The position numbers and the translations under genes were made by a program. A stretch of DNA of 64,000 nt. It comes from an uncultured candidatus Porisulfidus sp. (GTDB taxonomy: Bacteria; Pseudomonadota; Gammaproteobacteria; Poriferisulfidales; Oxydemutatoraceae). Below, one piece after another: positions 1-12,399 of this stretch (position 1 is the first letter of the stretch; each line of letters begins with the position of its first letter). Under the pieces are notes generated by a model. That model saw only the letters and a program-made list of their open reading frames with translations, made no database searches and was not told the origin of the DNA. Location: positions 224,001 through 288,000 of the forward strand of contig OZ244052.1 in the NCBI GenBank assembly GCA_965215125.1, written 5' to 3'.

Positions 1-578
1 ATGACAATCTTGTCGTCGGCAGCATAGCGATACGGTGGGACTTCCAAATTCTTAGGTGCCGGTACACCGCGATAAACACGCCCCGCCAAATCAAAACGCG
101 AACCATGACATGCACAAAAGAAACCACCTTCCCATTTAGCACCCAAATCTTCCGGCGCAATATCGGGCCGGTAAGTCGGCGAACATCCGAGATGCGTGCA
201 TATTCCGACCAATACCAAAAACTCCGGCTTGATCGATCTGTATTCGTTATGCGCATACTCCGGCTGCTGCGGCTGATCCGAATTGGGATCACGCAACTGT
301 GGCTCCACATCCTTTAAGGTCTGCAACATCTTCTTGGTTCTGTTGACTATCCATATCGGCTTACCGCGCCACTCTTCACGCACCATCTCACCGGGCTCTA
401 TCTTGCTTAAATCAACCTCAACAGGCGCACCCGCCGCTTGCGTTTTAGCACTGGGCTCCATAGACTTCACAAAAGGAACAGCCGTTGTGACTATTCCTAC
501 TCCTCCTACTATCTGTGCACTGGAACTTAAGAAACGTCGACGCGTAACGTCAACTTTATCATCATCATCGGTAGGCAT
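1..578 (-). CDS. petA: Ubiquinol-cytochrome c reductase Rieske Fe-S subunit (3' end runs off the window)
   Basis: Manual minus-strand translation from ATG 578: MPTDDDDKVDVTRRRFL (Tat motif)...GICTHLGC...FFCACHGSRFDLAGRVYRGVPAPKNLEVPPY, containing both Rieske boxes. Not in the ORF track because the stop lies outside the window. Confidence 0.95.
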   Translation of the reverse strand, partial: MPTDDDDKVDVTRRRFLSSSAQIVGGVGIVTTAVPFVKSMEPSAKTQAAGAPVEVDLSKIEPGEMVREEWRGKPIWIVNRTKKMLQTLKDVEPQLRDPNSDQPQQPEYAHNEYRSIKPEFLVLVGICTHLGCSPTYRPDIAPEDLGAKWEGGFFCACHGSRFDLAGRVYRGVPAPKNLEVPPYRYAADDKIV

Positions 579-790
579 TGTATGACTCTCTGTTTTTAAT
601 GTTTATATCAATAACTCTTGGGGGGGGTTAGCTAAACCAGCCTACACATCGGTAGACCATCACACCATAATTAGTTAGGCGCAGTGGCAAATGTCAAAGC
701 ACTTAACACCATATACTGGAGATTGCCACTGCTAGTTATATTAACTAATACGGGATTATAGCACAATAGCGGGCGAACTGCATATATTCA

Positions 791-897
791 TTCCCCTCCT
801 TGTAGGAGCAGAATAGAGCCGCCGATTGAGCCAGTAGGTCAATCGGCAATTTTGATGTCCGCCCTTAGGGTGGCAAGCTCCGCCTGACGGGGTGGTT
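791..897 (+). repeat. REP-like palindrome (family A) with nested hairpin element (family B, 814-847)
   Basis: ttcccctcc...ggag left part and gggtggca...gcctgacggggtggtt right part, interrupted by gccgattgagccagtaggtcaatcggc. Confidence 0.75.
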
Positions 898-946
898 GCG
901 TCGTGGGGCTGTTGGAAAAGTATCCACGAACTGTAGGGACGGTACA

Positions 947-992
947 TTCCCCTCCTTCGGAGGGGTGGCAGGCGCAGCCTGACGGGGTGGTT
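947..992 (+). repeat. REP-like palindrome family A (clean copy)
   Basis: ttcccctccttcggaggggtggcaggcgcagcctgacggggtggtt; related copies recur more than 10 times in intergenic regions. Confidence 0.85.
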
Positions 993-1102
993 GCACCGGC
1001 ACGATTAACACATCCCCACCCTACTTTAGCAAACACTTCGGGTACACTCCCCAAACAATTTGCTATACTATTGCTACAAAAAAATTGGCAAGGTTCGGAA
1101 TA

Positions 1103-1267
1103 ATGAAATATAGTTTTATCATAATTTTTGCGTTAGCACTTGGAGGATGCACACCCTTTTATGATTTCAAATATCATGAAACAAATAGTAGCCCAGCCCG
1201 TGTGTGCTATAGTAAATATATCGCCGGCGAACCTATCGGAGATTTTTGCAAAAATAAAATTCATTAA
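1103..1267 (+). CDS. Small putative lipoprotein
   Basis: MKYSFIIIFALALGGC has a hydrophobic signal and a lipobox-like LGGC; 54 aa. Confidence 0.5.
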   Translation: MKYSFIIIFALALGGCTPFYDFKYHETNSSPARVCYSKYIAGEPIGDFCKNKIH

Positions 1268-1359
1268 AAGTTTTAGTTTCTGTTTCAGTCCCTAGGTGAG
1301 TTGTTATACTGTTGCTACTTTTTCAACAGCCCCATTTCCCTTTTCTACTTTGGTTTAGA

Positions 1360-1467
1360 GCGACGCAACAAAAAAGCCGCCCGTAGGCGGCCTTTCGAAT
1401 GTTGCGTATATTCACACTTATTAATCCTGATACAAAAATCGTTAATGTGAAATCCCTAATTCAATTT
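1360..1467 (-). ncRNA. tracrRNA
   Basis: Minus strand reads ATTGAATTAGGG (1465-1454) and GTATCAGGATTAAT (1433-1420), complementary to the crRNA repeat, then AAG and 3' hairpins ending in GCCGCC-TACG-GGCGGC-TTTTTT. It lies divergent from cas9. Confidence 0.85.
1370..1391 (-). terminator. Rho-independent terminator of tracrRNA
   Basis: GC hairpin GCCGCC/GGCGGC followed by a U6 run on the minus strand. Confidence 0.75.
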
Positions 1468-1471
1468 TTCC

Positions 1472-1500
1472 AGCGTAGCACACCTTGAATTAAAAAGCAA
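1472..1500 (-). promoter_or_regulatory. sigma70 promoter for tracrRNA
   Basis: TTGCTT-17 nt-TACGCT with an extended -10 TG; the start would fall at about 1465-1467, right at the anti-repeat. Confidence 0.55.
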
Positions 1501-1587
1501 TTTTTCTTTGCGATTTAGCATGTAACCGTATTTATAGTTATAATAGCAGGTTTCATAAATGGATAACCAATAAGGAGGTATATCGTC

Positions 1588-4500
1588 ATGGGAATTAAAT
1601 ATCGCTTAGGGCTGGATGTCGGTGCCAATTCACTCGGCTGGAGTGTGCTGAAACTAGACACGGATGATAAACCTTATAAAATAGAAAATGCCGGTGCACG
1701 CATTTTCTCCGACGGACGAGAACCTAAAGGTCATAGTACCTTGAAGGCAGTCAGGAGAACAGCACGATCTGCCCGCCGAAATAGAGACAGATTCAAACAG
1801 CGACAAACGTATCTGATAAAGGAACTGGAAAAAGCTAAATTGTTTCCGCCGGAATCCGATACTGCGACGCGCCATGCTATACAAAAACTTGACCCTTTAG
1901 AATTGCGGGCTAATGCGCTGCATGAAAAGCTAGACCCCTACCATATAGGTCGTGCATTATTTCATATAAATCAACGTCGCGGTTTTAAGAGCAACCGCAA
2001 AGACACCAGCAAAGAAACTAGGAGCGGTAAGGTCAGTAAATCCGTGATGGCACTATTCAAGAAAATGGGTTTAGTCCAACAAAGTTCTATCCTCGATGAA
2101 CCAGAAAAGCTCTCTGAAGAACAAAAAAAATGGATCCGACAAGAGGAAGCCAAACAAAAGAAAGAAGCGATCACTAAATTAAAAGATTCAGATATTACTT
2201 TCGGTTCGTTTTTGTGGGAACGACGCAAACAGAACCCGCCACAGGCAACCCGTGCTCGTCCCAACGTAGATGGCAAGTTATACGATCTTTATCCGACCCG
2301 AGATCTATTAGAAGACGAATTTGACAAAATCTGTGCTAAACAACAAAAATATCACCCAAAACTTTTAAGCGCGGAAGTCGTCAAACATTTGAGAAAAATT
2401 ATATTTTATCAGCGACCCTTGAAACCCCAAGAGCGCGGCAAATGTGCTTATATGTATAAGGCAGGAGAACTCCGCGCTTTCCGAGCAATGCCGAGCTTTC
2501 AACGCTATCGCATCTATCAAGAAGTTAATAACTTGGAATGGGCCGGTCCGAGACAACCATATCGTTTGAGAGATTACCCCGAAGCAAGGGATGCCGTCGT
2601 GACACTATTAGAGAAACCTACTACTAAAAAAGGCAATGTCACCTTTACTAAAATTAAGAACGTACTTAAAGATCTAGGAGTCGCAGAAGGCGAGTTCAAA
2701 TTAAATTACGAAACCTTGAAAAGAAAAAAAACAAAAAGTAAAAAAAACGAAAAGCAAAAAAAAGACTCGTCAGGTTTGGACGGCAATCTCACCTCTAATA
2801 TTATGCAAAAAGAGGATTGCATCGGAGCGCAATGGCATGATTGGCCCGTAGAAAAACAAGACTCATTCGTTGAATTGATATTAAATGACAAACTCAGCGA
2901 TGCGGAAGTCCGAGATAAGCTAATGAAAGAATACGAACTCTCTCAGGAAGTAGCTACAGTTTGTCTTGAGGCGCACTTGAAAGAAGGCACGGCTCACCTA
3001 TCCTTAAAAGCTGCCAAATTGCTCACGGAAAAAATGAAAAATGAATATTGTGTGCAATCCAAAGCAGTGGAGCGTGTCTCGGAAGAGCACAACGACTTTG
3101 TTAGTCCACTTAGATCTACCGAAGAGGGAAAATTATTAGAGCGATTACCCTATTACGGAGAGTTTTTTCAAGATGGCAAACATATAATTGAGGGAACCCT
3201 AGATAGAGAAGATGAACACGATGCCTTAAAATTTTACGGAGGTGTGACCAACCCGACGGTACACATCGCCTTGAACCAAATCCGCAATGTAATCAATGAA
3301 CTGATAAAACGATATGGGAAGCCGTCCTCCATTGTCATTGAACTAGGTAGAGAGTTACCTGTCGGTGAAGAGGAACGTAAAGAAATAGAAAAAGAGCAGA
3401 AGGAGAATCAAACGAATAATGAAAGAATTGATACAGAACTTAAGGAACTCGGACAGTTTATAAATAGGGATAACAGAATCAGGTTTCGGCTTTGGGAAGA
3501 ATTAAACAAGGATCCTGCCGGACGCAAATGCCCATTTACAGGCAAAACCATCGGTATTCATGACATATTTAGTGATGAATTTGAAGTTGAACACCTTATC
3601 CCTTTTAGCAGATCATTAGATGATAGTTTCTCTAATAAAGTATTGTGCTCAACACAAGCAAACCGAGACAAAGGGCAAAAAACTCCATACGAAGCATTTG
3701 GCGACAGTCTCGGTGGTTACAGCTGGAATGAGATTTTTGAACGTTCTAAAAGGTTGCCCGATAGCAAGCAGTGGCGATTTGAAAAAGACGCTATGAAAAA
3801 GTGGCAACGCAACGAGTCCGATTTCCTAGCCCGGCATCTAAACGACACCCGATATATCGGCAGATTAACCAAAGATTATCTTAAAGCTATCTGTCCATAC
3901 AATGAGATTTATGTTGTCACCGGAAGATTGACTGCCCTTTTACGTGGTCATTGGGGGTTAAACAGTATCCTAAACGAGATACGAACCGATGAGGAACTTA
4001 AAAGGCTTGGACAAGAGGCTAGTAAAGATAATAGAGTTAGGTATTGGCTTTGGGAAGAATTAAACGAGGATCCCAATGGGCGTGAATGTCCCTTTACAGG
4101 GAAGACTATTATTAAAGATGACATATTTAGTGATGAATTTGAAATCGGATATCTCATTCCTGATAGTACATCAAAGGGCGACAGTTTCTCTAATAAAGTG
4201 TTATGTTCGACACAAGCAAACCAAGACAAAGGACAATGTACTCCATACGAGGCATTCGGTCATAGTCCTGACGATTACAACTGGAATAATATTCTGCAAC
4301 GCTCCGAAAGATTGCCTGAAAACAAGCAATGGCGATTTTTAGAAGACGCTATGGAAAAATGGCAGAGCAGAAATTTTGGTAGCAGCAGCTATAATAAAGC
4401 AAAGAAAAGCCGCGACGACCATAGGCATCATGCGATTGATGCCATTGTAATCGGAATGACTACGAGAAGTATCTTGCAACAAGTAGCAACGGCTGCCAAC

Positions 4501-5406
4501 CAATCCGAGGAGTTAAACCTTCCGTATTTATTTAATAAAAAAGAAAATGGTAAAAGCGCAATTGATCCATGGCTCGGATTTCGTGCAGATGTGAAAAACA
4601 TAATAGATAATATCATCGTTTCTCATAGAAAAAGGAACAAACAGTTAGGACAAGGTAGCACAAAGTTAGGACGCGATAGCACAAGCGGACAGCTGCACAA
4701 TAGTACTGCTTATGGCATAGTGACAAAACATGATAATAAAGAGAGTACGGTTGTAGTGCGCCGATCTATAGACAATTTAGTAGGCAAAAAAGAGGGACGC
4801 AGGAAAAGACTGGAATCCATTTGCGACAATTATTTAAGAGAACAATTTTTAGATGCGTTTGATGGCAATGGCAAGGAGGGTGTGATGATTCTAGCTAAAC
4901 AGAAAAATATCAGAGGGTTGCGTTGTATTCAAAATTTATCAATCATTCCTATTAAGGATAAAGAAGGACGGGAATATAAGGCTTTTCACGGAGATAGCAA
5001 CTGGGGATACGAAATTTACGAATACCCGAAAGGACATAAAAAAGCAGGGAAATGGGTAGGATTTCCCATTTCTACTCATGATGCCAATCAAAAAAACTTT
5101 CAACCGGGTTTAACCTTGCGCCGCCGCCATCACCTTCATCCAACCGCTAAACTTGTAATGCGTTTGCATGTCAATGACTATGTGGAAATTATCGGAGAAG
5201 ATGGTACACCGCAAATCATGCGTCTACAGAAAATTTCAAAAGGCTTAGATTTTATTCCTCCTAACGAAGCAAATGTCGCTAAGCGAGTAAAGAATAAAGA
5301 ATTAAAGTTCTTTAATAAGTCAGGCGGTAGCCTACAAAAGCTAAAAAGTCGTAAAATACATATTAGCCCGACAGGGCTTAAAAATTACGATGGCAATTGT
5401 AGCTAA
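1588..5406 (+). CDS. cas9: Type II-C Cas9 with an extra, catalytically degenerate HNH domain
   Basis: RuvC-I GLDVG, Arg-rich bridge helix, RRGFKSNRK, RuvC-II IVIELGRE, HNH EVEHLIP...SNK...ANRDKG, RuvC-III HRHHAIDA. SD TAAGGAGG at 1571-1578. Confidence 0.97.
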   Translation: MGIKYRLGLDVGANSLGWSVLKLDTDDKPYKIENAGARIFSDGREPKGHSTLKAVRRTARSARRNRDRFKQRQTYLIKELEKAKLFPPESDTATRHAIQKLDPLELRANALHEKLDPYHIGRALFHINQRRGFKSNRKDTSKETRSGKVSKSVMALFKKMGLVQQSSILDEPEKLSEEQKKWIRQEEAKQKKEAITKLKDSDITFGSFLWERRKQNPPQATRARPNVDGKLYDLYPTRDLLEDEFDKICAKQQKYHPKLLSAEVVKHLRKIIFYQRPLKPQERGKCAYMYKAGELRAFRAMPSFQRYRIYQEVNNLEWAGPRQPYRLRDYPEARDAVVTLLEKPTTKKGNVTFTKIKNVLKDLGVAEGEFKLNYETLKRKKTKSKKNEKQKKDSSGLDGNLTSNIMQKEDCIGAQWHDWPVEKQDSFVELILNDKLSDAEVRDKLMKEYELSQEVATVCLEAHLKEGTAHLSLKAAKLLTEKMKNEYCVQSKAVERVSEEHNDFVSPLRSTEEGKLLERLPYYGEFFQDGKHIIEGTLDREDEHDALKFYGGVTNPTVHIALNQIRNVINELIKRYGKPSSIVIELGRELPVGEEERKEIEKEQKENQTNNERIDTELKELGQFINRDNRIRFRLWEELNKDPAGRKCPFTGKTIGIHDIFSDEFEVEHLIPFSRSLDDSFSNKVLCSTQANRDKGQKTPYEAFGDSLGGYSWNEIFERSKRLPDSKQWRFEKDAMKKWQRNESDFLARHLNDTRYIGRLTKDYLKAICPYNEIYVVTGRLTALLRGHWGLNSILNEIRTDEELKRLGQEASKDNRVRYWLWEELNEDPNGRECPFTGKTIIKDDIFSDEFEIGYLIPDSTSKGDSFSNKVLCSTQANQDKGQCTPYEAFGHSPDDYNWNNILQRSERLPENKQWRFLEDAMEKWQSRNFGSSSYNKAKKSRDDHRHHAIDAIVIGMTTRSILQQVATAANQSEELNLPYLFNKKENGKSAIDPWLGFRADVKNIIDNIIVSHRKRNKQLGQGSTKLGRDSTSGQLHNSTAYGIVTKHDNKESTVVVRRSIDNLVGKKEGRRKRLESICDNYLREQFLDAFDGNGKEGVMILAKQKNIRGLRCIQNLSIIPIKDKEGREYKAFHGDSNWGYEIYEYPKGHKKAGKWVGFPISTHDANQKNFQPGLTLRRRHHLHPTAKLVMRLHVNDYVEIIGEDGTPQIMRLQKISKGLDFIPPNEANVAKRVKNKELKFFNKSGGSLQKLKSRKIHISPTGLKNYDGNCS

Positions 5407-5435
5407 CACTCTACATTCAATAATCAATTTTTTGC

Positions 5436-6350
5436 ATGCCCGACCAAATCGTTGAAATTACGCAACCGGGTTATTGGTTGAGTAAGTCACGCGGATTTTT
5501 AGAAGTTCAAAGCAACGATGAAAACCAAATCGGTGGAAAGATACCATTAGATGATATTCTATCGGTTGTTATTTCTACTCCAGGATGTTCTCTATCAACC
5601 GTTCTCATAGATTACCTGAGTCGTCGCAATATCCCCATTACGATATGCGGAGCAAACTACCTACCCACAACACTTATCTTACCGATAGATGGTTACAATA
5701 GACAATTCCAAGTCATGCAAAGCCAAACCGATTTATCGGCACCGCGCCGGAAGCGCGCATGGCAAGCTATAGTCAGAGCTAAAATACAAAATCAAGCCGA
5801 TTTACTGGAGTTTGTCGGCAAAAATAATATGCAATTAAAACGCTTAATCTCAAATGTGAAATCCGGCGATGTGGATAATTGCGAAGCTCAAGCAGCACGC
5901 ATTTATTGGCAAAGTTTGTTCGGCGAAGATTTTCGTCGTGACCGCACTGCCACAGATTTGAATACTCCGCTCAACTATATTTACACGGTTATTAGAGCGT
6001 GTATTGCTCGCGGGATTAGCAGTGCAGGATTACATCCTACATTCAGCATACACCATAAAAATCCACAAAATGCATTCAACCTCGCCGATGATTTGATTGA
6101 ACCCTATCGCCCTATTGCCGATTGCTTTGTTTGGAAAAAATATTTCAATAAATTTGATCGACTGACCCCCGAAGTAAAAGCATCTTTAACAAGCATCGTA
6201 AATCTACAAATCCCTGTAGGAGACGAAGTATCCCCTTTATCGTTGGCTGCCATTAAGACATGCCGTTCTTTCGCAAGCTATTGCCTCAATGAAGCAACAA
6301 ATATCTTACTTCCTAAGCTACCTATGTCTTTAGAAATAGGGGCTTTATGA
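5436..6350 (+). CDS. cas1: CRISPR-associated Cas1 (type II)
   Basis: NCEAQAARIYW, FRRDR, LNYIY, GLHP...HH, FNLADDLIEPYRP motifs; directly after cas9. Confidence 0.95.
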   Translation: MPDQIVEITQPGYWLSKSRGFLEVQSNDENQIGGKIPLDDILSVVISTPGCSLSTVLIDYLSRRNIPITICGANYLPTTLILPIDGYNRQFQVMQSQTDLSAPRRKRAWQAIVRAKIQNQADLLEFVGKNNMQLKRLISNVKSGDVDNCEAQAARIYWQSLFGEDFRRDRTATDLNTPLNYIYTVIRACIARGISSAGLHPTFSIHHKNPQNAFNLADDLIEPYRPIADCFVWKKYFNKFDRLTPEVKASLTSIVNLQIPVGDEVSPLSLAAIKTCRSFASYCLNEATNILLPKLPMSLEIGAL

Positions 6351-6691
6351 GTAGTAACCAAAACCATCTAAGCCCGTATCGCATTATGTGGTTATTTGTA
6401 ATGTTTGACTTGCCGGTAGGCACTAAAAAAGAGAGAGAGCAGGCAACAAAATTTCGTCAAGGGCTTCTTGATTTAGGGTTTGAAATGTCACAATTTTCGG
6501 TATACTTAAAATACTGTCCATCAAAAGAAAAATCGGAAGTAGTTAGTGACAAAGTCAAAGTTAAAATTCCGATTGGAGGTAAAGTAGATATTCTGATGAT
6601 AACCGATAAACAGTTTTCAGGCATGAAAAGATTTTATGCAAAAATCGAAATTAAAAGCAGTGCAAAACCGAAGCAGTTACATATCTTTTGA
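6347..6691 (+). CDS. cas2: CRISPR-associated Cas2
   Basis: MWLFVMFDLPV...FRQGLLDLGFEMSQFSVY; ATGA overlap with cas1. No csn2 or cas4, so subtype II-C. Confidence 0.95.
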   Translation: MSSNQNHLSPYRIMWLFVMFDLPVGTKKEREQATKFRQGLLDLGFEMSQFSVYLKYCPSKEKSEVVSDKVKVKIPIGGKVDILMITDKQFSGMKRFYAKIEIKSSAKPKQLHIF

Positions 6692-6752
6692 TTATTTTTT
6701 TCTACGCAATATAGAAAAAAGTATCATCACAATAACTGCTTCGGCGTTGTCT

Positions 6753-7632
6753 GATTATACCATTGAATTAGGGGGTATCAGGACAACGTACATTGTGATG
6801 ACCTTGTCAAAAAAAAGGATTATACCATTGAATTAGGGGGTATCAGGACAACTCATAATCATCATCAAACAAACTATCGTCTGATTATACCATTGAATTA
6901 GGGGGTATCAGGACAACTGTGTAATAGTTATTAGCGAGATGCTCGTAGATTATACCATTGAATTAGGGGGTATCAGGACAACGCCTGGGTCATTATATAT
7001 CTAAGGAGATTAGATTATACCATTGAATTAGGGGGTATCAGGACAACCTAAATAGACCGGTAGTAAGCGGCGATCAGGATTATACCATTGAATTAGGGGG
7101 TATCAGGACAACACTATGACCCAGCTTTTGATTCACCTGATAGATTATACCATTGAATTAGGGGGTATCAGGACAACTATTTGTTGGAATGACTGGGTTG
7201 AGTTTATGATTATACCATTGAATTAGGGGGTATCAGGACAACTAGAAGGAGACGTTCAACTAGACGTACCTAGATTATACCATTGAATTAGGGGGTATCA
7301 GGACAACTTATCAACTTCAACTTCAACTTCAACGCCAGATTATACCATTGAATTAGGGGGTATCAGGACAACTATATTTTACTTCTTTGCATATGATAAC
7401 TCGATTATACCATTGAATTAGGGGGTATCAGGACAACTTGGTGAGCCTTCTCGTGCAAACTATTTTAGATTATACCATTGAATTAGGGGGTATCAGGACA
7501 ACTTATCAACTTCAATATCAACATCAACGCCAGATTATACCATTGAATTAGGGGGTATCAGGACAACTCCTTGCGCGCCATTAAGAACAGGGGGATTGAT
7601 TATACCATTGAATTAGGGGGTATCAGGACAAC
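6753..7632 (-). CRISPR. CRISPR array, cas-proximal segment (14 repeats)
   Basis: 35-bp repeat GATTATACCATTGAATTAGGGGGTATCAGGACAAC every 65 bp with 30-bp spacers. crRNA sense is GTTGTCCTGATACCCCCTAATTCAATGGTATAATC. Confidence 0.98.
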
Positions 7633-7701
7633 AAACTGACCTTCCCCCATTTTCAGGGCCAAAACTTAAATGAGATCTGTATTATAAGTCACCTCTGTGC
7701 C

Positions 7702-7914
7702 TTATGCTAATAAAATCTTAAATAAAGCTAGATTTCCAAGCTCGCATTCCAATATGGGTTGGTTATTCTCGTTCAGTGGCAATTTAGACAAAATCCTATG
7801 TTGTTGCCTAAATTGAAGTCTTGCAACTAAAAAACCAGCCTCATAATGCGCCTTTAAGCGACGATCTCTAGTCGAGATGACCTCTACTAGCTGCTGATTT
7901 TTAGCTCGTTTCAT
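7702..7914 (-). CDS. Possible passenger ORF inside the IS3 element
   Basis: 70-aa ORF between the orfB stop and the terminal IR; no recognised motif. Confidence 0.35.
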   Translation of the reverse strand: MKRAKNQQLVEVISTRDRRLKAHYEAGFLVARLQFRQQHRILSKLPLNENNQPILECELGNLALFKILLA

Positions 7915-7935
7915 AACTACTAAACAAGCCTTACG

Positions 7936-8754
7936 CTACGCAACACGTGTGGCGAATGCTACCGGGGTCATATAATCTAATGAGCTATGCGGGCGTTCAT
8001 GGTTATAGTGGTATCGCCACTGTTCAATAATATGACGCACTTCCTGAAGGCTGCGGAACCAGTGCTGGTTAAGGCAATTGTCTCTAAACTTACCGTTCAG
8101 GCTTTCCACCAAAGCATTCTGGGTCGGTTTACCCGGTTGAATAAAGTATAGTTCCACGCCGCTATCTTGCGACCAGACCTGCATCTTTTTACTAGTGAAC
8201 TCCGGCCCGTTGTCGCAGACGATGCTTTGCGGACAACCTCGCTCGGCGATGAGTTGCTCTAAACATCTCACCACTTGCCCACTGCTAATCGAAAAACCAG
8301 CGAATTGACCGATCAGTTCGCGACTGTAATCGTCCATCACATTGAATATCCTAAACGACCTGCCGTCGCTTAACCGATCATGCACAAAGTCCATTGACCA
8401 GCGACAATTCACCTGTTCAGGCAATGCCTGCCGTTGCCTCGTGCGGATGAGCTTCTTGCGCAGTCTTTTGGGTACTTGCAGTCTCGCTTCTTTGTAGATG
8501 CGGTGAACCCGTTTTTTATTCACTACAAAGCCTGCCTCTCGTAGCAAACGGTAGAGTAGCAAATAGCCATAGCGTGGATACTTGCTTGCCAACTCGCACA
8601 AGCGACTTCTAATCTCTGCATCACAACGCGGCTGTGTTCGATAGTGATAACTACTACGGCTTATCCCGACCAGCTCGCAACTGCGCCTCTCACTCAAACT
8701 CCAATGGGTATTCAGCTCTGCAACAACGCTTCTTTTGCTTGCCGGGGTCACCAC
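7936..8754 (-). CDS. IS3-family transposase OrfB (DDE)
   Basis: WSMDF, CDNGPEF, QNALVESLNG motifs; A6G slippery site at the orfA/orfB overlap. Confidence 0.93.
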   Translation of the reverse strand: MVTPASKRSVVAELNTHWSLSERRSCELVGISRSSYHYRTQPRCDAEIRSRLCELASKYPRYGYLLLYRLLREAGFVVNKKRVHRIYKEARLQVPKRLRKKLIRTRQRQALPEQVNCRWSMDFVHDRLSDGRSFRIFNVMDDYSRELIGQFAGFSISSGQVVRCLEQLIAERGCPQSIVCDNGPEFTSKKMQVWSQDSGVELYFIQPGKPTQNALVESLNGKFRDNCLNQHWFRSLQEVRHIIEQWRYHYNHERPHSSLDYMTPVAFATRVA

Positions 8755-9011
8755 TTTTTTGATAGCACATCCTTGAGGGCGGTGATTTCTAATAGTTGCT
8801 CGCCGAGTAGTTTCTTGAGTCGGTTATTCTCCGATACAAGGTTCTTTAATCGCTTGGCATCATTGACTTCTAACCCGGCATATTTGCTACGCCAGTTGTA
8901 AAAGGTGCCATGCGCTATACCGAGTTCTCGGCAAATGTCCTCTGTGCTGCGACCTGCCTCGTGCGATTTGATCGCACCGATAATTTGCTCTTCTGTATAT
9001 CGTTTATTCAT
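8748..9011 (-). CDS. IS3-family transposase OrfA (HTH)
   Basis: MNKRYTEEQII...ICRELGI...TFYNWRSKY...ENNRLKKL. Confidence 0.92.
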   Translation of the reverse strand: MNKRYTEEQIIGAIKSHEAGRSTEDICRELGIAHGTFYNWRSKYAGLEVNDAKRLKNLVSENNRLKKLLGEQLLEITALKDVLSKKW

Positions 9012-9118
9012 TTTGAAACCTCCTGTTGTTTACTAATTTAACTGGAAATCTCATCTTTGTCATGGCCCAGTTTTGGGGGGTAAGGTCAAAACCCCGACAA
9101 GACCAACCGTAAGCCTAA

Positions 9119-11168
9119 GATTATACCATTGAATTAGGGGGTATCAGGACAACTAGTGTTGCTGAACTAATGCTTGCTTGAGAGATTATACCATTGAATT
9201 AGGGGGTATCAGGACAACTTGCGGATAAAATTGTCTTCACAACTTGAAGATTATACCATTGAATTAGGGGGTATCAGGACAACTCGACCTCAATCGTAAC
9301 ATCAACACCATGCGATTATACCATTGAATTAGGGGGTATCAGGACAACTTCCAATATCGTACCTTGCGCTGCAGCTGCGATTATACCATTGAATTAGGGG
9401 GTATCAGGACAACTTGCTTCAATATAGCTATATAAGCATATGCGATTATACCATTGAATTAGGGGGTATCAGGACAACGAACAGCACCGACCGCCGGTCT
9501 AAATCTAGGATTATACCATTGAATTAGGGGGTATCAGGACAACGTGCATTGTGATGACCTTGTGAAAAAAAAGGATTATACCATTGAATTAGGGGGTATC
9601 AGGACAACTATTCTTTATCGTAGTTAGGCGGATATAATGATTATACCATTGAATTAGGGGGTATCAGGACAACTACAGTACAGTTGGCTGTATTAAATGA
9701 TTGGGATTATACCATTGAATTAGGGGGTATCAGGACAACTTTCGTGCCTATAAAGTGATATGGAATGAGGATTATACCATTGAATTAGGGGGTATCAGGA
9801 CAACGTAGGCGCCGTGCTTATTGGACGCGTTCCAGATTATACCATTGAATTAGGGGGTATCAGGACAACGTTTGGAAGTATGGTTTTGTTTATTTTAAGG
9901 ATTATACCATTGAATTAGGGGGTATCAGGACAACATATGGGTCCACTCGCCCCTTGCACATTCCGATTATACCATTGAATTAGGGGGTATCAGGACAACG
10001 GCGATAGTCTTTACTCTATTTTCGGTGCAGATTATACCATTGAATTAGGGGGTATCAGGACAACAATGGGACCGCCTGCAGATAAAGACGGTATGATTAT
10101 ACCATTGAATTAGGGGGTATCAGGACAACAATCTAAAATTATTTCCAATGTTTCACATGGATTATACCATTGAATTAGGGGGTATCAGGACAACTAATAA
10201 CGTCTCGATTCGTGATGTATATGCGATTATACCATTGAATTAGGGGGTATCAGGACAACAAACGGCTCCATGTCCCATAAAATTATAAGGATTATACCAT
10301 TGAATTAGGGGGTATCAGGACAACCAAGTTACGGTTACTAATCTATCTCAACATGATTATACCATTGAATTAGGGGGTATCAGGACAACGCGTGGGTCAT
10401 TATATATCTAAGGAGATTAGATTATACCATTGAATTAGGGGGTATCAGGACAACATGACCCCTATTCCGCCTTCCGCTGTTGCTGATTATACCATTGAAT
10501 TAGGGGGTATCAGGACAACTGCGGGCGCAAAGCCAGTATTTTAGACTCCGATTATACCATTGAATTAGGGGGTATCAGGACAACTAATAACGTCTCGATT
10601 CGTGATGTATATGCGATTATACCATTGAATTAGGGGGTATCAGGACAACTCGGCGGTACTGATCTCGGTTCATCGGTTTAGATTATACCATTGAATTAGG
10701 GGGTATCAGGACAACTTTCACTAATAAGCGTAATTTCAACGAGTTGATTATACCATTGAATTAGGGGGTATCAGGACAACGTTATCGGCGAGATATTCAT
10801 AACATTCGTCGATTATACCATTGAATTAGGGGGTATCAGGACAACATAACAATTATACATGGCGTTACAAGCAAAAGATTATACCATTGAATTAGGGGGT
10901 ATCAGGACAACTCGTCGACGACGGCAATTACATCAAGAGAAGATTATACCATTGAATTAGGGGGTATCAGGACAACTTCGTCTTATACCGCCACTTATAC
11001 CCGTTAGATTATACCATTGAATTAGGGGGTATCAGGACAACATCTATCGTAACATTTTCATGAATAGTGTCGATTATACCATTGAATTAGGGGGTATCAG
11101 GACAACTTGTTTCTCTTTCTGCATAAGCGCAAAAAATGATTATACCATTGAATTAGGGGGTATCAGGA
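9119..11168 (-). CRISPR. CRISPR array, distal segment (32 repeats, last one truncated)
   Basis: Same 35-bp repeat with 30-31-bp spacers; the final repeat stops at ...TATCAGGA where the second IS begins. Confidence 0.98.
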
Positions 11169-12399
11169 TGACGTTCTCCCCAAATTTAGTACCAATGTTA
11201 AAGTCAGTTTTTCCGATAAACTAGAGAAGTTAAAAACATTACAGGAGAACCTAACATGAAGAGAACCGCCGATTGAACCAGTGGGTCAATCGGCGTGACA
11301 CTGTGCAGAAACTTAATGTGGTCAAACGAAGCCGGCATGAAAGTAGTAGATATCTGTCGTGATCTAGGCATCGCCGAGAAAACATTTTATCGCTGGCGCA
11401 GAAAGTATAATGGCATGGAAGTATCGGAAGCCAGACGCCTGAAAGAGCCTGAAGCCGAGAACGGCAAGCTCAAGAAGCTATTGGCTGAATCGGTGATGAA
11501 GTGTGAAACACTAGAGGAGGTTTTATCAAAAAAGTGGTAAAGCCGGCGCAGCGCAAGCAGATTGTCAAAGATCTAGTGGGTGCGGGTCGGCATAGTGAAC
11601 GCACCGCTTGCGAGTTGATTGGTGTCAGTCGCAGTGCTTATCGCTATCAAGGCAAGCCAGCCGATAAAGATTGCCAACTGGAAGCCGCATTATCGGAGAA
11701 GGCAAAGCAGTATCCGCATTATGGCTATAAGATGCTGCATGCTCTACTAAAGTGCGAAGGCCGGGTCGTCAATGTGAAGCGCACCTATAGACTTTATAAG
11801 AAGCTCGGGCTTGGATTGAGAACCAAGAAGCACAACAAGCTGTGTCGTCCGCGTTGCGTGCCGACAACACCGACTAGAGTGAATGAGTGCTGGTCAATGG
11901 ACTTTGTGCATGACCAGCTCAGCGACGGCAGACGCTTTCGGGTATTGAACATAGTAGATAACTTCAGCCGTGAATGTGTCGGGCAGATTGTTGATGTTTC
12001 AATTACCGGCCAACGCGTAGCAAACTATCTATCCGAATTGATAGAACGGCTTGGTGCAAAGCCGACACGCATCGTCTGCGGCAATGGCACCGAGTTTAGA
12101 TGCAAGGCCATGTTCCACTGGAGCCGAGACCAGCAGGTGGAATTGGATTTTATTCAGCCCGGCAAACCGACCCAGAATACCTTTGTAGAAAGTTTCAACG
12201 GTAAGTTCCGAGACGGTTGCCTGAACCAGTTCTGGTTTCGTTGAATAAAATAAGCAAGAGAGACTATAGAAGCCTGGCGCATAGATTATAATGAAGTCCG
12301 TCCGCACAGCGCATTGGGGTATCAACCCCCGAGTGTATTTGCGGAGGCAATAGCATGAAAACTGACATTGCAAGTGGTCCTAAAAATGGGGTAACGTCA
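11169..12399 (+). mobile_element. Degenerate IS3-family element
   Basis: IRs tgacgttctccccaaatttagtacc / ggtcctaaaaatggggtaacgtca; no target duplication visible. Confidence 0.88.
11256..12360 (+). pseudogene. IS3 orfA/orfB transposase pseudogene
   Basis: orfA (RBS GGAG, ATG 11256) is interrupted by a family B element (11262-11315). orfB has CGNGTEF in place of catalytic CDNG and a premature stop at 12242-12244; degenerate HNEVRPHS-like coding sequence continues to about 12360. Confidence 0.85.

What the first reader, a model, noticed from the sequence alone, without database searches (positions are those of the whole stretch)
3430..4365. Cas9 with two HNH domains: a dead second HNH inserted into RuvC-III
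Seen: aa 615-740 (nt 3430-3807) is repeated 558 nt downstream as aa 801-926 (nt 3988-4365), with no indels and 88 of 126 residues identical by hand count (about 70%). Copy 1 keeps E668-H669, N683 and N692. Copy 2 has G854-Y855 at the catalytic positions but keeps both Asn and the CPFTG, SNKVLC, TPYEAF and KQWRF core. It sits between HWGLNSIL and KSRDDHRHHAIDA, normally a short loop in II-C RuvC-III. Many synonymous differences plus an intact frame argue for an old, retained duplication, and several K-to-E changes make copy 2 more acidic. Known: Cas9 has one HNH, and the anti-CRISPRs AcrIIC1 and AcrIIC3 bind HNH. Inference: copy 2 may be an anti-CRISPR decoy or an allosteric/fidelity module on an otherwise intact nuclease.
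Basis: partly seen in the sequence, partly recalled or inferred. Interest (0 to 1): 0.93.

Follow-up and report, generated by a model that had tools for sequence, protein, structure and literature searches.

The report
Cas9 with a second, dead HNH
A sponge-symbiont-type bacterium carries an otherwise ordinary CRISPR Cas9 that holds a second, catalytically disabled copy of its HNH nuclease domain, and related species have kept that copy under selection, so it probably does some non-cutting job.

Summary
The 1272-aa type II-C Cas9 (window 1588-5406) holds two HNH_4 domains. The repeat is aa 615-740 against aa 801-926: 88 of 126 residues identical, no indels, and at most 21 of 126 in any other self-comparison.

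Copy 2, with its linkers (aa 795-938), sits where solved II-C Cas9s have essentially no loop, about 10 residues before the RuvC-III His/Asp motif. It is not an assembly artefact. Seven distinct proteins share the architecture, three of them in species of one genus at a syntenic, complete locus, and contigs from a second study bridge both copies.

All seven HNH2 copies form one clade, so there was one duplication. None keeps the full catalytic set: six have G-Y instead of E-H, and two have Lys at the metal-binding Asn. HNH1 and the RuvC residues are intact. HNH2 is under purifying selection (dN/dS 0.12-0.15), folds confidently as a Cas9 HNH domain, and is acidic.

Two single-HNH alleles nest inside the clade, so the insert was lost or swapped by recombination. 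Its function is unknown. I favour a non-catalytic regulatory module next to RuvC. An AcrIIC1-type decoy looks less likely.

I found no description in print. It is a new variant of a known kind.

The parts
1588..5406 (+). cas9, 1272 aa, type II-C, with two HNH domains
   Evidence: ORF and its translation P0001. TIGR01865 cas_Csn1 scores 695.7 bits against a cut-off of 100. Pfam finds HNH_4 twice, RuvC_III and Cas9_a. D10, E585, H948 and D951 are present.
3430..3807 (+). HNH1, aa 615-740, the canonical HNH. Homology with copy 2 extends to about aa 611-743 (nt 3418-3816).
   Evidence: HNH_4 at 87.6 bits. E668-H669, N683 and N692 are present. pLDDT is about 78-93 in the full-length model.
3589..3594 (+). 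Codons of E668-H669, the catalytic pair of HNH1
   Evidence: E/D-H is kept in HNH1 of all 7 double-HNH proteins (alignment).
3808..3987 (+). First segment of RuvC-III, aa 741-800, lying between the two HNH copies and ending in HWGLNSIL
   Evidence: Aligns to solved Cas9 chains up to residue about 712. Lowest dN/dS of the gene, 0.05-0.12.
3970..4401 (+). The whole insert relative to solved II-C Cas9s, aa 795-938: HNH2 plus its connecting segments
   Evidence: Query aa 794 and 939 abut at chain residues 711-712 of 9ar4 and 8uzb. Single-HNH relatives have 6-42 aa here.
3988..4365 (+). HNH2, aa 801-926, a degenerate, acidic second HNH domain
   Evidence: HNH_4 at 64.9 bits. 88 of 126 residues identical to HNH1. 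The domain model has pLDDT 94.2 and pTM 0.88. Its best PDB matches are Cas9 HNH domains: 7mpz with TM 0.76, 5vgb with TM 0.72. Net charge -10, pI 4.56. dN/dS 0.115-0.150.
4147..4152 (+). Codons of G854-Y855, at the place of the catalytic E-H pair
   Evidence: G-Y in 6 of 7 HNH2 copies. The seventh (P0004) has E-H but Lys at the second Asn.
4366..4410 (+). Linker from HNH2 back into RuvC-III, aa 927-941, predicted to be flexible
   Evidence: pLDDT is below 50 for residues 929-941 in the full-length model.
4420..4440 (+). RuvC-III motif HRHHAID, aa 945-951, with the catalytic His and Asp
   Evidence: H948 and D951 are invariant in the 94-sequence alignment.
5436..6350 (+). cas1, type II
   Evidence: TIGR03639 cas1_NMENI scores 255.4 bits against a cut-off of 120.
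6347..6691 (+). cas2
   Evidence: TIGR01573 scores 55.8 bits against a cut-off of 24.5.
6753..7632 (.). CRISPR array, first part: 14 identical repeats (35-nt core, 65-nt period)
9119..11172 (.). CRISPR array, second part: 32 more copies of the same repeat, separated from the first part by an IS3-type element
   Evidence: for the repeat positions. for the transposase ORFs 7936-8754 and 8748-9011 on the minus strand.
1375..1485 (-). Putative tracrRNA (inferred only): an anti-repeat at about 1423-1485, then a hairpin with a U-run at about 1376-1400
   Evidence: Duplex with the repeat is -29.9 kcal/mol; 200 shuffles give a mean of -17.5 and a best of -27.3. Sequence. The region is 98% and 83% conserved in the two sister loci. 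No Rfam match.

Best explanation
This is a working-looking type II-C CRISPR-Cas9 locus. Its Cas9 carries an internal duplication of about 130 aa: the whole HNH domain with the ends of its two linkers, re-inserted about 55 residues downstream. The insertion point is a surface loop of RuvC-III, just ahead of the RuvC His/Asp motif.

Shown: the duplication happened once, in the ancestor of a small clade of Cas9 alleles found in one genus of uncultured gammaproteobacteria. After it, copy 2 changed quickly. It lost the catalytic Glu-His pair (now Gly-Tyr) and/or the metal-binding Asn, and lost basic residues so that it became acidic. It then came under purifying selection as strong as on the rest of Cas9. 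It keeps the Cas9 HNH fold.

Inferred: HNH2 does not cut DNA. It is a pseudo-nuclease module tethered at the entrance of the RuvC active site. It enlarges a loop that was already acidic and of variable length in the nearest relatives. Most likely it modulates nuclease activation, for example by gating access of the non-target strand to RuvC or by influencing where HNH1 docks. HNH1 and RuvC would do the cutting.
For: Architecture:
- Two HNH_4 hits and a split RuvC_III match.
- The insertion point maps to a near-zero-length loop in solved Cas9s.

Breadth:
- 5 of 270 fetched Cas9 proteins have two HNH domains.
- With the genes of L002 and L003 that makes 7 distinct proteins.
- 3 of 61 genomes searched carry it full-length, all in the window's genus.
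- Only 2 of 87 other loci have two HNH places.
- cas1, cas2, the array and the upstream flank are syntenic in the two sister loci.

Single origin:
- All 7 HNH2 copies form one clade (100/100) on a stem of 0.36 substitutions per site, against tips of 0.06 or less for all but P0004_H2 (0.13).

Dead active site:
- 0 of 7 HNH2 copies keep E/D-H plus both Asn; 7 of 7 HNH1 copies do.
- From recalled knowledge, SpCas9 D839A, H840A or N863A each abolish HNH cleavage.

Selection:
- HNH2 dN/dS is 0.137, 0.150 and 0.115. The rest of the gene gives 0.268, 0.159 and 0.172, and HNH1 gives 0.328, 0.161 and 0.231.
- The share of non-synonymous changes is 0.40-0.45 against 0.82 expected under neutrality, p = 1e-4 to 2e-8 (the three pairs are not independent).

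Fold:
- The domain model has pLDDT 94.2 and its top PDB matches are Cas9 HNH domains.
- In the 1200-aa model HNH2 has the same order of secondary-structure elements as HNH1.

Acidity:
- HNH2 has net charge -4 to -10. The loops of the nearest single-HNH relatives have net charge -3 to -8.

Locus likely in use:
- The array has 46 repeats and 44 spacers.
- No spacers are shared among the three species.
Against: No experiment or coordinate-level model places HNH2 relative to RuvC, HNH1 or DNA.

Single-HNH alleles P0006 and P0007 nest inside the clade. They are sister to P0003/L003p with 100/100 support, and the AU test rejects a monophyletic double-HNH backbone at p = 0.0003. Cas9 in this lineage therefore does without HNH2 in some genomes.

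One HNH2 (P0004) still has E-H, so loss of the catalytic pair was not immediate and catalysis cannot be excluded for that allele.

Activity of this Cas9 has not been shown. No protospacer was found for 2 spacers tried. No RNA run is on record.
Confidence: 0.55

Rival explanations
1. Anti-CRISPR decoy. HNH2 is kept because it soaks up, or sterically blocks, phage inhibitors that bind the HNH domain, so HNH1 is spared.
For: Solved structures show that several Acrs bind II-C HNH domains; Nme HNH complexes with AcrIIC1 and AcrIIC3 are among the fold matches. HNH2 keeps the HNH fold and 40 of 126 positions invariant across all HNH1 and HNH2 copies. It is under purifying selection. A fast-evolving stem followed by conservation fits a new binding role.
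Against: AcrIIC1 hydrogen-bonds the conserved catalytic residues (PMC5859409, passages read), and these are replaced in HNH2. A cis decoy is stoichiometric at 1:1, so it would at most double the inhibitor dose needed. No Acr is known for these hosts. No binding test was run here.
Confidence: 0.15
2. A tolerated passenger. A duplication landed in a permissive, variable loop and has no function of its own. Its conservation reflects only the need to stay folded so as not to poison Cas9.
For: The loop is highly variable in length, 6-42 aa in 13 relatives. Single-HNH alleles nest within the clade. The catalytic site has decayed in more than one way.
Against: dN/dS on HNH2 is as low as or lower than on HNH1 and the rest of the gene in all 3 pairwise comparisons. 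Protein identity between orthologs is higher for HNH2 than for HNH1 in most pairs, for example 95.2% against 82.5% for P0001 and L002p, and 91.2% against 76.2% for P0003 and P0005. 11 substitutions are fixed in all 7 HNH2 copies and never seen in 13 HNH1 copies. No frameshift or partial deletion is seen in 7 copies.
Confidence: 0.15
3. HNH2 is still a nuclease and makes an extra cut or nick, by a non-canonical mechanism or, in the P0004-type allele, with its retained Glu-His.
For: P0004 HNH2 keeps E-H and the first Asn. The whole beta-beta-alpha core is kept, including CPFTG, SNKVL and TPYEAF.
Against: 6 of 7 copies have Gly-Tyr at the general-base pair. The seventh has Lys at the metal-binding Asn, so 0 of 7 have a complete site. 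The domain is acidic, net -4 to -10, which is unfavourable for DNA binding.
Confidence: 0.05
4. Assembly or collapse artefact: the duplication does not exist in the organism.
For: None found.
Against: The two copies differ at 98 of 378 nucleotides. The same architecture is found in three separately assembled genomes and four further protein clusters at 82-95% identity. Contigs from two studies bridge both copies and show no joints.
Confidence: 0.01

Closest known systems
Type II-C Cas9 (NmeCas9, GeoCas9/ThermoCas9, CjeCas9 type)
   Same: Same gene order (cas9-cas1-cas2-array) and the same domain order RuvC-I / REC / RuvC-II / HNH / RuvC-III / C-terminal lobe. The catalytic D10, E585, H948 and D951 and the HNH E-H, N, N set are present. 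The best solved relatives by sequence are 9ar4 (E = 1.2e-39), 8uzb and the Nme1Cas9 entries. TIGR01865 is matched.
   Different: A second HNH domain of about 130 aa is inserted in RuvC-III where these proteins have no loop. The protein is about 150-190 aa longer than they are (1272 aa against 1082-1092 aa chains). I found no description of a Cas9 with two HNH domains in the full-text searches.
Nearest single-HNH alleles P0006 and P0007 (1127 and 1128 aa, from ENA assemblies)
   Same: 81% identical to this Cas9 overall and 91.5-92% identical to the double-HNH P0003 and L003p. They nest in the same clade.
   Different: They have a 22-aa acidic loop (GYISKPTEEISDGATKDGDDNK) where this protein has HNH2.
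The original HNH insertion in the RuvC fold of IscB/Cas9 ancestors (recalled knowledge, not tested here)
   Same: An HNH domain is inserted into the RuvC-like domain. Here the same kind of event has happened a second time, about 55 residues further along the same domain.
   Different: The second insert is a paralog of the first and is catalytically degenerate.
Catalytically inactivated nuclease domains kept in CRISPR effectors, such as the inactive RuvC of Cas12k (recalled knowledge)
   Same: A nuclease fold is retained under selection after loss of its catalytic residues.
   Different: Here the active copy is kept alongside the dead one in the same polypeptide.

Membership tests
Cas9 (TIGR01865, type II effector) | Whole-protein match above the curated cut-off | tested here: met
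   695.7 bits against a cut-off of 100
Cas9 (TIGR01865, type II effector) | RuvC catalytic residues in motifs I, II and III (Asp, Glu, His, Asp) | tested here: met
   D10, E585, H948 and D951 are present. E585, H948 and D951 are invariant and D10 at least 90% conserved in 94 sequences.
Cas9 (TIGR01865, type II effector) | One HNH domain with the catalytic Asp/Glu-His, Asn, Asn set between RuvC-II and RuvC-III | tested here: met
   HNH1 has E668-H669, N683 and N692 and scores 87.6 bits on HNH_4.
Type II-C locus | cas9, cas1 and cas2 only, with no csn2 or cas4, next to a CRISPR array | tested here: met
   cas1 lies at 5436-6350 and cas2 at 6347-6691. The array starts at 6753. No other ORF of 60 aa or more lies between cas9 and the array on the + strand, apart from one at 6636-6836 that overlaps cas2 and the first repeats.
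Type II-C locus | A tracrRNA with an anti-repeat | tested here: inconclusive
   Candidate at 1423-1485 on the minus strand. Its duplex with the repeat is -29.9 kcal/mol, and 0 of 200 shuffles reach that. It has a 20-nt internal bulge, no Rfam match and no expression data.
Type II-C locus | RNA-guided DNA cleavage activity | not testable with these tools
   Needs a biochemical assay.
HNH_4 (PF13395), for HNH2 | Domain match above the gathering score | tested here: met
   64.9 bits against a cut-off of 22, covering profile positions 1-54 of 54.
HNH_4 (PF13395), for HNH2 | Cas9-type HNH fold | tested here: met
   The model has pLDDT 94.2. Its best PDB matches are 7mpz with TM 0.76 and 5vgb with TM 0.72, both at probability 1.00.
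Active HNH nuclease, for HNH2 | General-base His with its Asp/Glu partner, and the metal-binding Asn | tested here: not met
   G854-Y855 in this protein. 0 of 7 HNH2 copies have the complete set.

The most novel reading that the evidence does not exclude
HNH2 is a naturally evolved regulatory pseudo-nuclease built into Cas9. One reading is an acidic, HNH-shaped gate at the RuvC active site that sets a cleavage checkpoint for specificity or timing. The other is a built-in counter-measure against HNH-directed anti-CRISPRs. Either would be a mode of Cas9 control not seen in characterised orthologs, and the module would be portable for engineering.
Probability: 0.3. Interest if true: 0.85.

Novelty: new variant of a known kind. 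Interest (0 to 1): 0.74.

Why it matters
Cas9 is among the most thoroughly studied enzymes, and its one-HNH, one-RuvC plan is treated as fixed. Here the HNH domain has been duplicated, disabled and then kept by selection in several species. That shows the RuvC-III loop just before the catalytic His can hold a whole folded domain. It also gives a natural experiment: nearly identical alleles with and without the module (P0003/L003p against P0006/P0007, 92% identical) for asking what an extra HNH-shaped domain does to nuclease activation, fidelity or anti-CRISPR sensitivity. For engineering, it marks a tolerated insertion site next to the RuvC active site. For evolution, it repeats the HNH-into-RuvC insertion that is thought to have produced the Cas9 and IscB lineage (recalled knowledge).

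Tried and rejected
Assembly artefact: rejected.

Self-targeting spacers: two spacers of the first array part matched the window at 9544 and 10390. These turned out to be near-duplicate spacers inside a second part of the same array, not self-targets.

Protospacers: 2 spacer patterns were tried against viral contigs, with 0 matches each. I did not pursue this further.

More double-HNH loci in JGI metagenomes: two degenerate patterns for HNH2-specific peptides gave 0 matches each.

Shorter or stand-alone HNH2-like proteins: 0 of 99 candidates reached E = 1e-20 or better.

Other double-HNH Cas9 lineages: phmmer of HNH1 against 1.84 billion representatives listed 150 proteins. Two of them showed 2 matched stretches (P0157, P0201), but Pfam finds one HNH_4 in each. 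The representative of this clade's own 50% cluster is evidently a single-HNH form, so this library can hide double forms.

Rfam: no match in window 1-9000.

Expression: no RNA holder is listed.

Complex prediction was not used. I make no claim that specific proteins bind, and a stand-in Acr from another host would not be informative.

Loss against allele swap in P0006 and P0007 could not be settled. I could not tell whether the E-H of P0004's HNH2 is ancestral or comes from gene conversion by HNH1.

Supplementary files of papers were not requested. Supplements of Cas9-diversity surveys could list such proteins without my having seen them.
Full report
**Observation.** The window holds one long ORF at 1588-5406 on the + strand (1272 aa, P0001). 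It is followed by cas1 (5436-6350), cas2 (6347-6691) and a CRISPR array.
- NCBIfam calls the ORF Cas9: TIGR01865 scores 695.7 bits against a cut-off of 100.
- The repeat finder reports a 300-nt direct repeat pair 558 nt apart inside the gene.
- 280 of 378 nucleotides are identical, and third codon positions are the most diverged (75 of 126 identical, against 102 and 103). No other ungapped self-comparison of the protein exceeds 21 of 126.
- Pfam gives two HNH_4 matches, 87.6 and 64.9 bits against a cut-off of 22, and a RuvC_III match split in two.

**Where the insert sits.** In phmmer alignments to the closest solved Cas9 chains (9ar4, 8uzb), the query runs colinearly up to aa 794 at chain residue about 712. 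It resumes at aa 939 at chain residue about 711. So about 144 residues (795-938) lie where those proteins have no loop, roughly ten residues ahead of the RuvC-III HRHHAID motif. In 13 single-HNH relatives the same loop is 6-42 aa. In the five nearest ones (P0006-P0010) it is acidic, with net charge -3 to -8. Homology between the copies runs from about aa 611 to 743 in copy 1. The duplicated unit is therefore the HNH domain plus the ends of both linkers. It is not a simple tandem repeat, because the 60 aa of RuvC-III between the copies are present only once.

**It is real and shared.**
- A word-indexed search of the region found 4 other full-length proteins that cover it completely, at 82-95% identity (P0002-P0005).
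- Searching 61 genomes around the window's own, three carry the gene full-length: G000, G003 at 90% identity and G001 at 83%. All are in the same genus. A fourth genome of the genus has an unrelated Cas9 and a fifth has none.
- Public titles of the two sister records name a Candidatus Oxydemutatoraceae MAG and an uncultured Candidatus Porisulfidus MAG.
- The genes in L002 and L003 are not identical to any P-protein, which gives 7 distinct double-HNH proteins.
- Of 87 other Cas9 loci in hand, only these two have two HNH places.
- The sister loci have cas1 (98% and 96% aa identity), cas2, arrays with the same or a near-identical repeat, and the same upstream flank.
- Contigs of four public runs cover the stretch. 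One contig (X1) spans 3000-4368 with no difference. One from another study and organism label (X4) spans 3000-4292 with 31 differences. No joint skips a copy.

**History.** In a tree of HNH domains all seven HNH2 copies form one clade (100/100). The clade branches from among the HNH1 copies of the closest relatives, on a long stem of 0.36 substitutions per site, with short branches inside it. This indicates one duplication, a burst of change, then conservation. Paralog dS (0.8-1.6) exceeds ortholog dS (0.2-0.6), so the duplication predates the three species.

On a backbone tree built without the insert columns, the double-HNH proteins and two single-HNH proteins (P0006, P0007) form a clade of nine (100). 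P0006 and P0007 are sister to P0003/L003p (100/100). Holding the seven double-HNH rows together costs 77 log-likelihood units (AU p = 0.0003).

The alleles are mosaic. P0003 and P0005 are 98% identical in windows around the insert but 62-70% identical in several others. P0005's HNH2 groups with that of P0003, while its backbone groups with P0001. So HNH2 was either lost in the P0006/P0007 line or moved between alleles by homologous recombination. The 22-aa loop of P0006 and P0007 matches the outgroup P0008 in length and acidity, which makes me lean to an allele swap. That is inference.

**State of the two HNH copies.** HNH1 keeps E/D-H, Asn and Asn in 7 of 7 proteins. In HNH2 the pair is G-Y in 6 of 7. 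P0004 keeps E-H but has Lys at the second Asn, and L002p also has that Lys. So 0 of 7 HNH2 copies have a complete site. From recalled knowledge, each of the equivalent SpCas9 substitutions (D839A, H840A, N863A) abolishes HNH cleavage. The site has thus been disabled in at least two ways.

P0004's HNH2 branches first in the HNH2 clade. This is consistent with E-H being ancestral there, but a short gene-conversion tract from HNH1 would look the same.

Eleven positions are fixed in all seven HNH2 copies with residues never seen in 13 HNH1 copies, among them R634 to W820 and K647 to E833. Forty positions are invariant across both sets. HNH2 has net charge -4 to -10 (pI 4.6-5.3). HNH1 has net charge -6 to +4 across all 20 proteins compared.

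**Selection.** Nei-Gojobori estimates between the three orthologous genes give these dN/dS values:

| Pair | HNH2 | HNH1 | Rest of gene |
|---|---|---|---|
| L001-L002 | 0.137 | 0.328 | 0.268 |
| L001-L003 | 0.150 | 0.161 | 0.159 |
| L002-L003 | 0.115 | 0.231 | 0.172 |

The non-synonymous share in HNH2 (0.40-0.45) is far below the neutral expectation of 0.82, with p = 1e-4 to 2e-8. HNH1 and HNH2 do not differ significantly. The three pairs share branches and are not independent. Protein identity between orthologs is higher in HNH2 than in HNH1 for most pairs. A decaying passenger is therefore unlikely.

**Fold.** HNH2 alone, with a 54-row alignment, folds with mean pLDDT 94.2 and pTM 0.88. Foldseek's best PDB matches are Cas9 HNH domains: GeoCas9 7mpz with TM 0.76, and NmeCas9 HNH bound to AcrIIC1 (5vgb) with TM 0.72. 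47 matches have E of 0.001 or better. In a model of residues 1-1200 (mean pLDDT 77.2, pTM 0.48):
- HNH2 scores 62-86 per 10-residue block.
- It repeats the helix and strand order of HNH1.
- Residues 929-941, after HNH2, fall below 50, which suggests a flexible return linker.

**Is the system in use?** RuvC residues D10, E585, H948 and D951 are present. The array has 46 identical or near-identical repeats and 44 spacers. It is split by an IS3-type element. The three species share no spacer. A candidate tracrRNA lies upstream of cas9 on the minus strand. These points suggest a live system but do not show activity. No RNA data are on record.

**Mechanism.** What is shown: HNH2 is a selected, folded, acidic HNH-like domain without a complete active site, tethered next to the RuvC catalytic motif.

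What I infer (confidence about 0.55 for a non-catalytic regulatory role, less for any particular version): it acts as a pseudo-nuclease module that modulates activation. It might gate non-target-strand entry to RuvC, or influence where HNH1 docks. It extends a role that the acidic loop of its relatives may already have had.

It is weakened for AcrIIC1-type inhibitors, which bind the catalytic residues (PMC5859409, passages only), and by the 1:1 stoichiometry of a cis decoy. A passenger (about 0.15), an active second nuclease (about 0.05) and an artefact (about 0.01) are the other rivals.

**Novelty.** Full-text searches returned no paper that describes such a Cas9:
- "two HNH domains" with Cas9: 6 papers, 5 listed. 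By title and abstract these concern Cap5, TIGR-Tas and Argonaute-HNH systems.
- "second HNH" with duplication: 0 papers.
- duplicated, tandem, dual, additional or extra HNH: 0 papers.
- duplication and pseudonuclease terms: 7 papers, 6 listed, none relevant by title or abstract.
- Porisulfidus with CRISPR: 1 paper. Sponge symbiont with type II-C: 2 papers. Neither set concerns this protein.

I saw only listings for these. Subscription-journal papers and supplements were not searchable. I rate it a new variant of a known kind. A Cas9 specialist would probably find it surprising, and the natural with/without allele pair makes it directly testable.

Noticed in passing
window 7633-9118 (ORFs 8748-9011 and 7936-8754, minus strand): An IS3-type insertion element (HTH_Tnp_1 plus rve/rve_3 ORFs) splits the CRISPR array into 14 and 32 repeats. 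A second rve-type ORF pair lies just past the array, at 11295-12244.
   Followed up: partly
window spacers at 6788/9544, 6983/10390, 7308/7503, 10195/10585: Four pairs of near-identical or identical spacers lie within the array, with 2, 1, 3 and 0 mismatches. L013 has a three-spacer block repeated exactly. This suggests repeated acquisition from related targets or segmental duplication in the array.
   Followed up: partly
window about 1375-1485, minus strand: Candidate tracrRNA. Its anti-repeat pairs with both halves of the repeat around a 20-nt internal bulge, and a GC hairpin with a U-run follows. No Rfam match.
   Followed up: partly
cas9 aa about 379-396 (window about 2722-2775): A lysine-rich insertion (KTKSKKNEKQKKDSS) in the REC lobe is present only in P0001 and P0002 among the 10 closest proteins. 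Its pLDDT is below 50.
   Followed up: no
cas9 aa about 1019-1032 (window about 4642-4683): P0001 alone has 7 extra residues (LGQGSTK before LGRDSTS). This looks like a small tandem duplication. The region has low confidence in the model.
   Followed up: no
loci L015-L061: Cas9 relatives at about 50-60% identity sit in MAGs whose titles span several phyla and orders: Nitrospirales, Candidatus Poriferihabitaceae, Arenicellales, Rhodobiaceae and Pseudohongiellaceae. This suggests horizontal spread of this Cas9 lineage among co-resident marine or sponge-type bacteria.
   Followed up: no
window 868-899 and 963-994: A 32-nt direct repeat, 91% identical and 95 nt apart, lies in the intergenic region upstream of the CRISPR locus. 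A similar element recurs in the sister loci.
   Followed up: no
window 4339-4653: Runs X1-X3 each hold two contig variants of this stretch of cas9, one identical and one with 26 differences in 315 nt. Two cas9 alleles or strains therefore coexist in the same samples.
   Followed up: no
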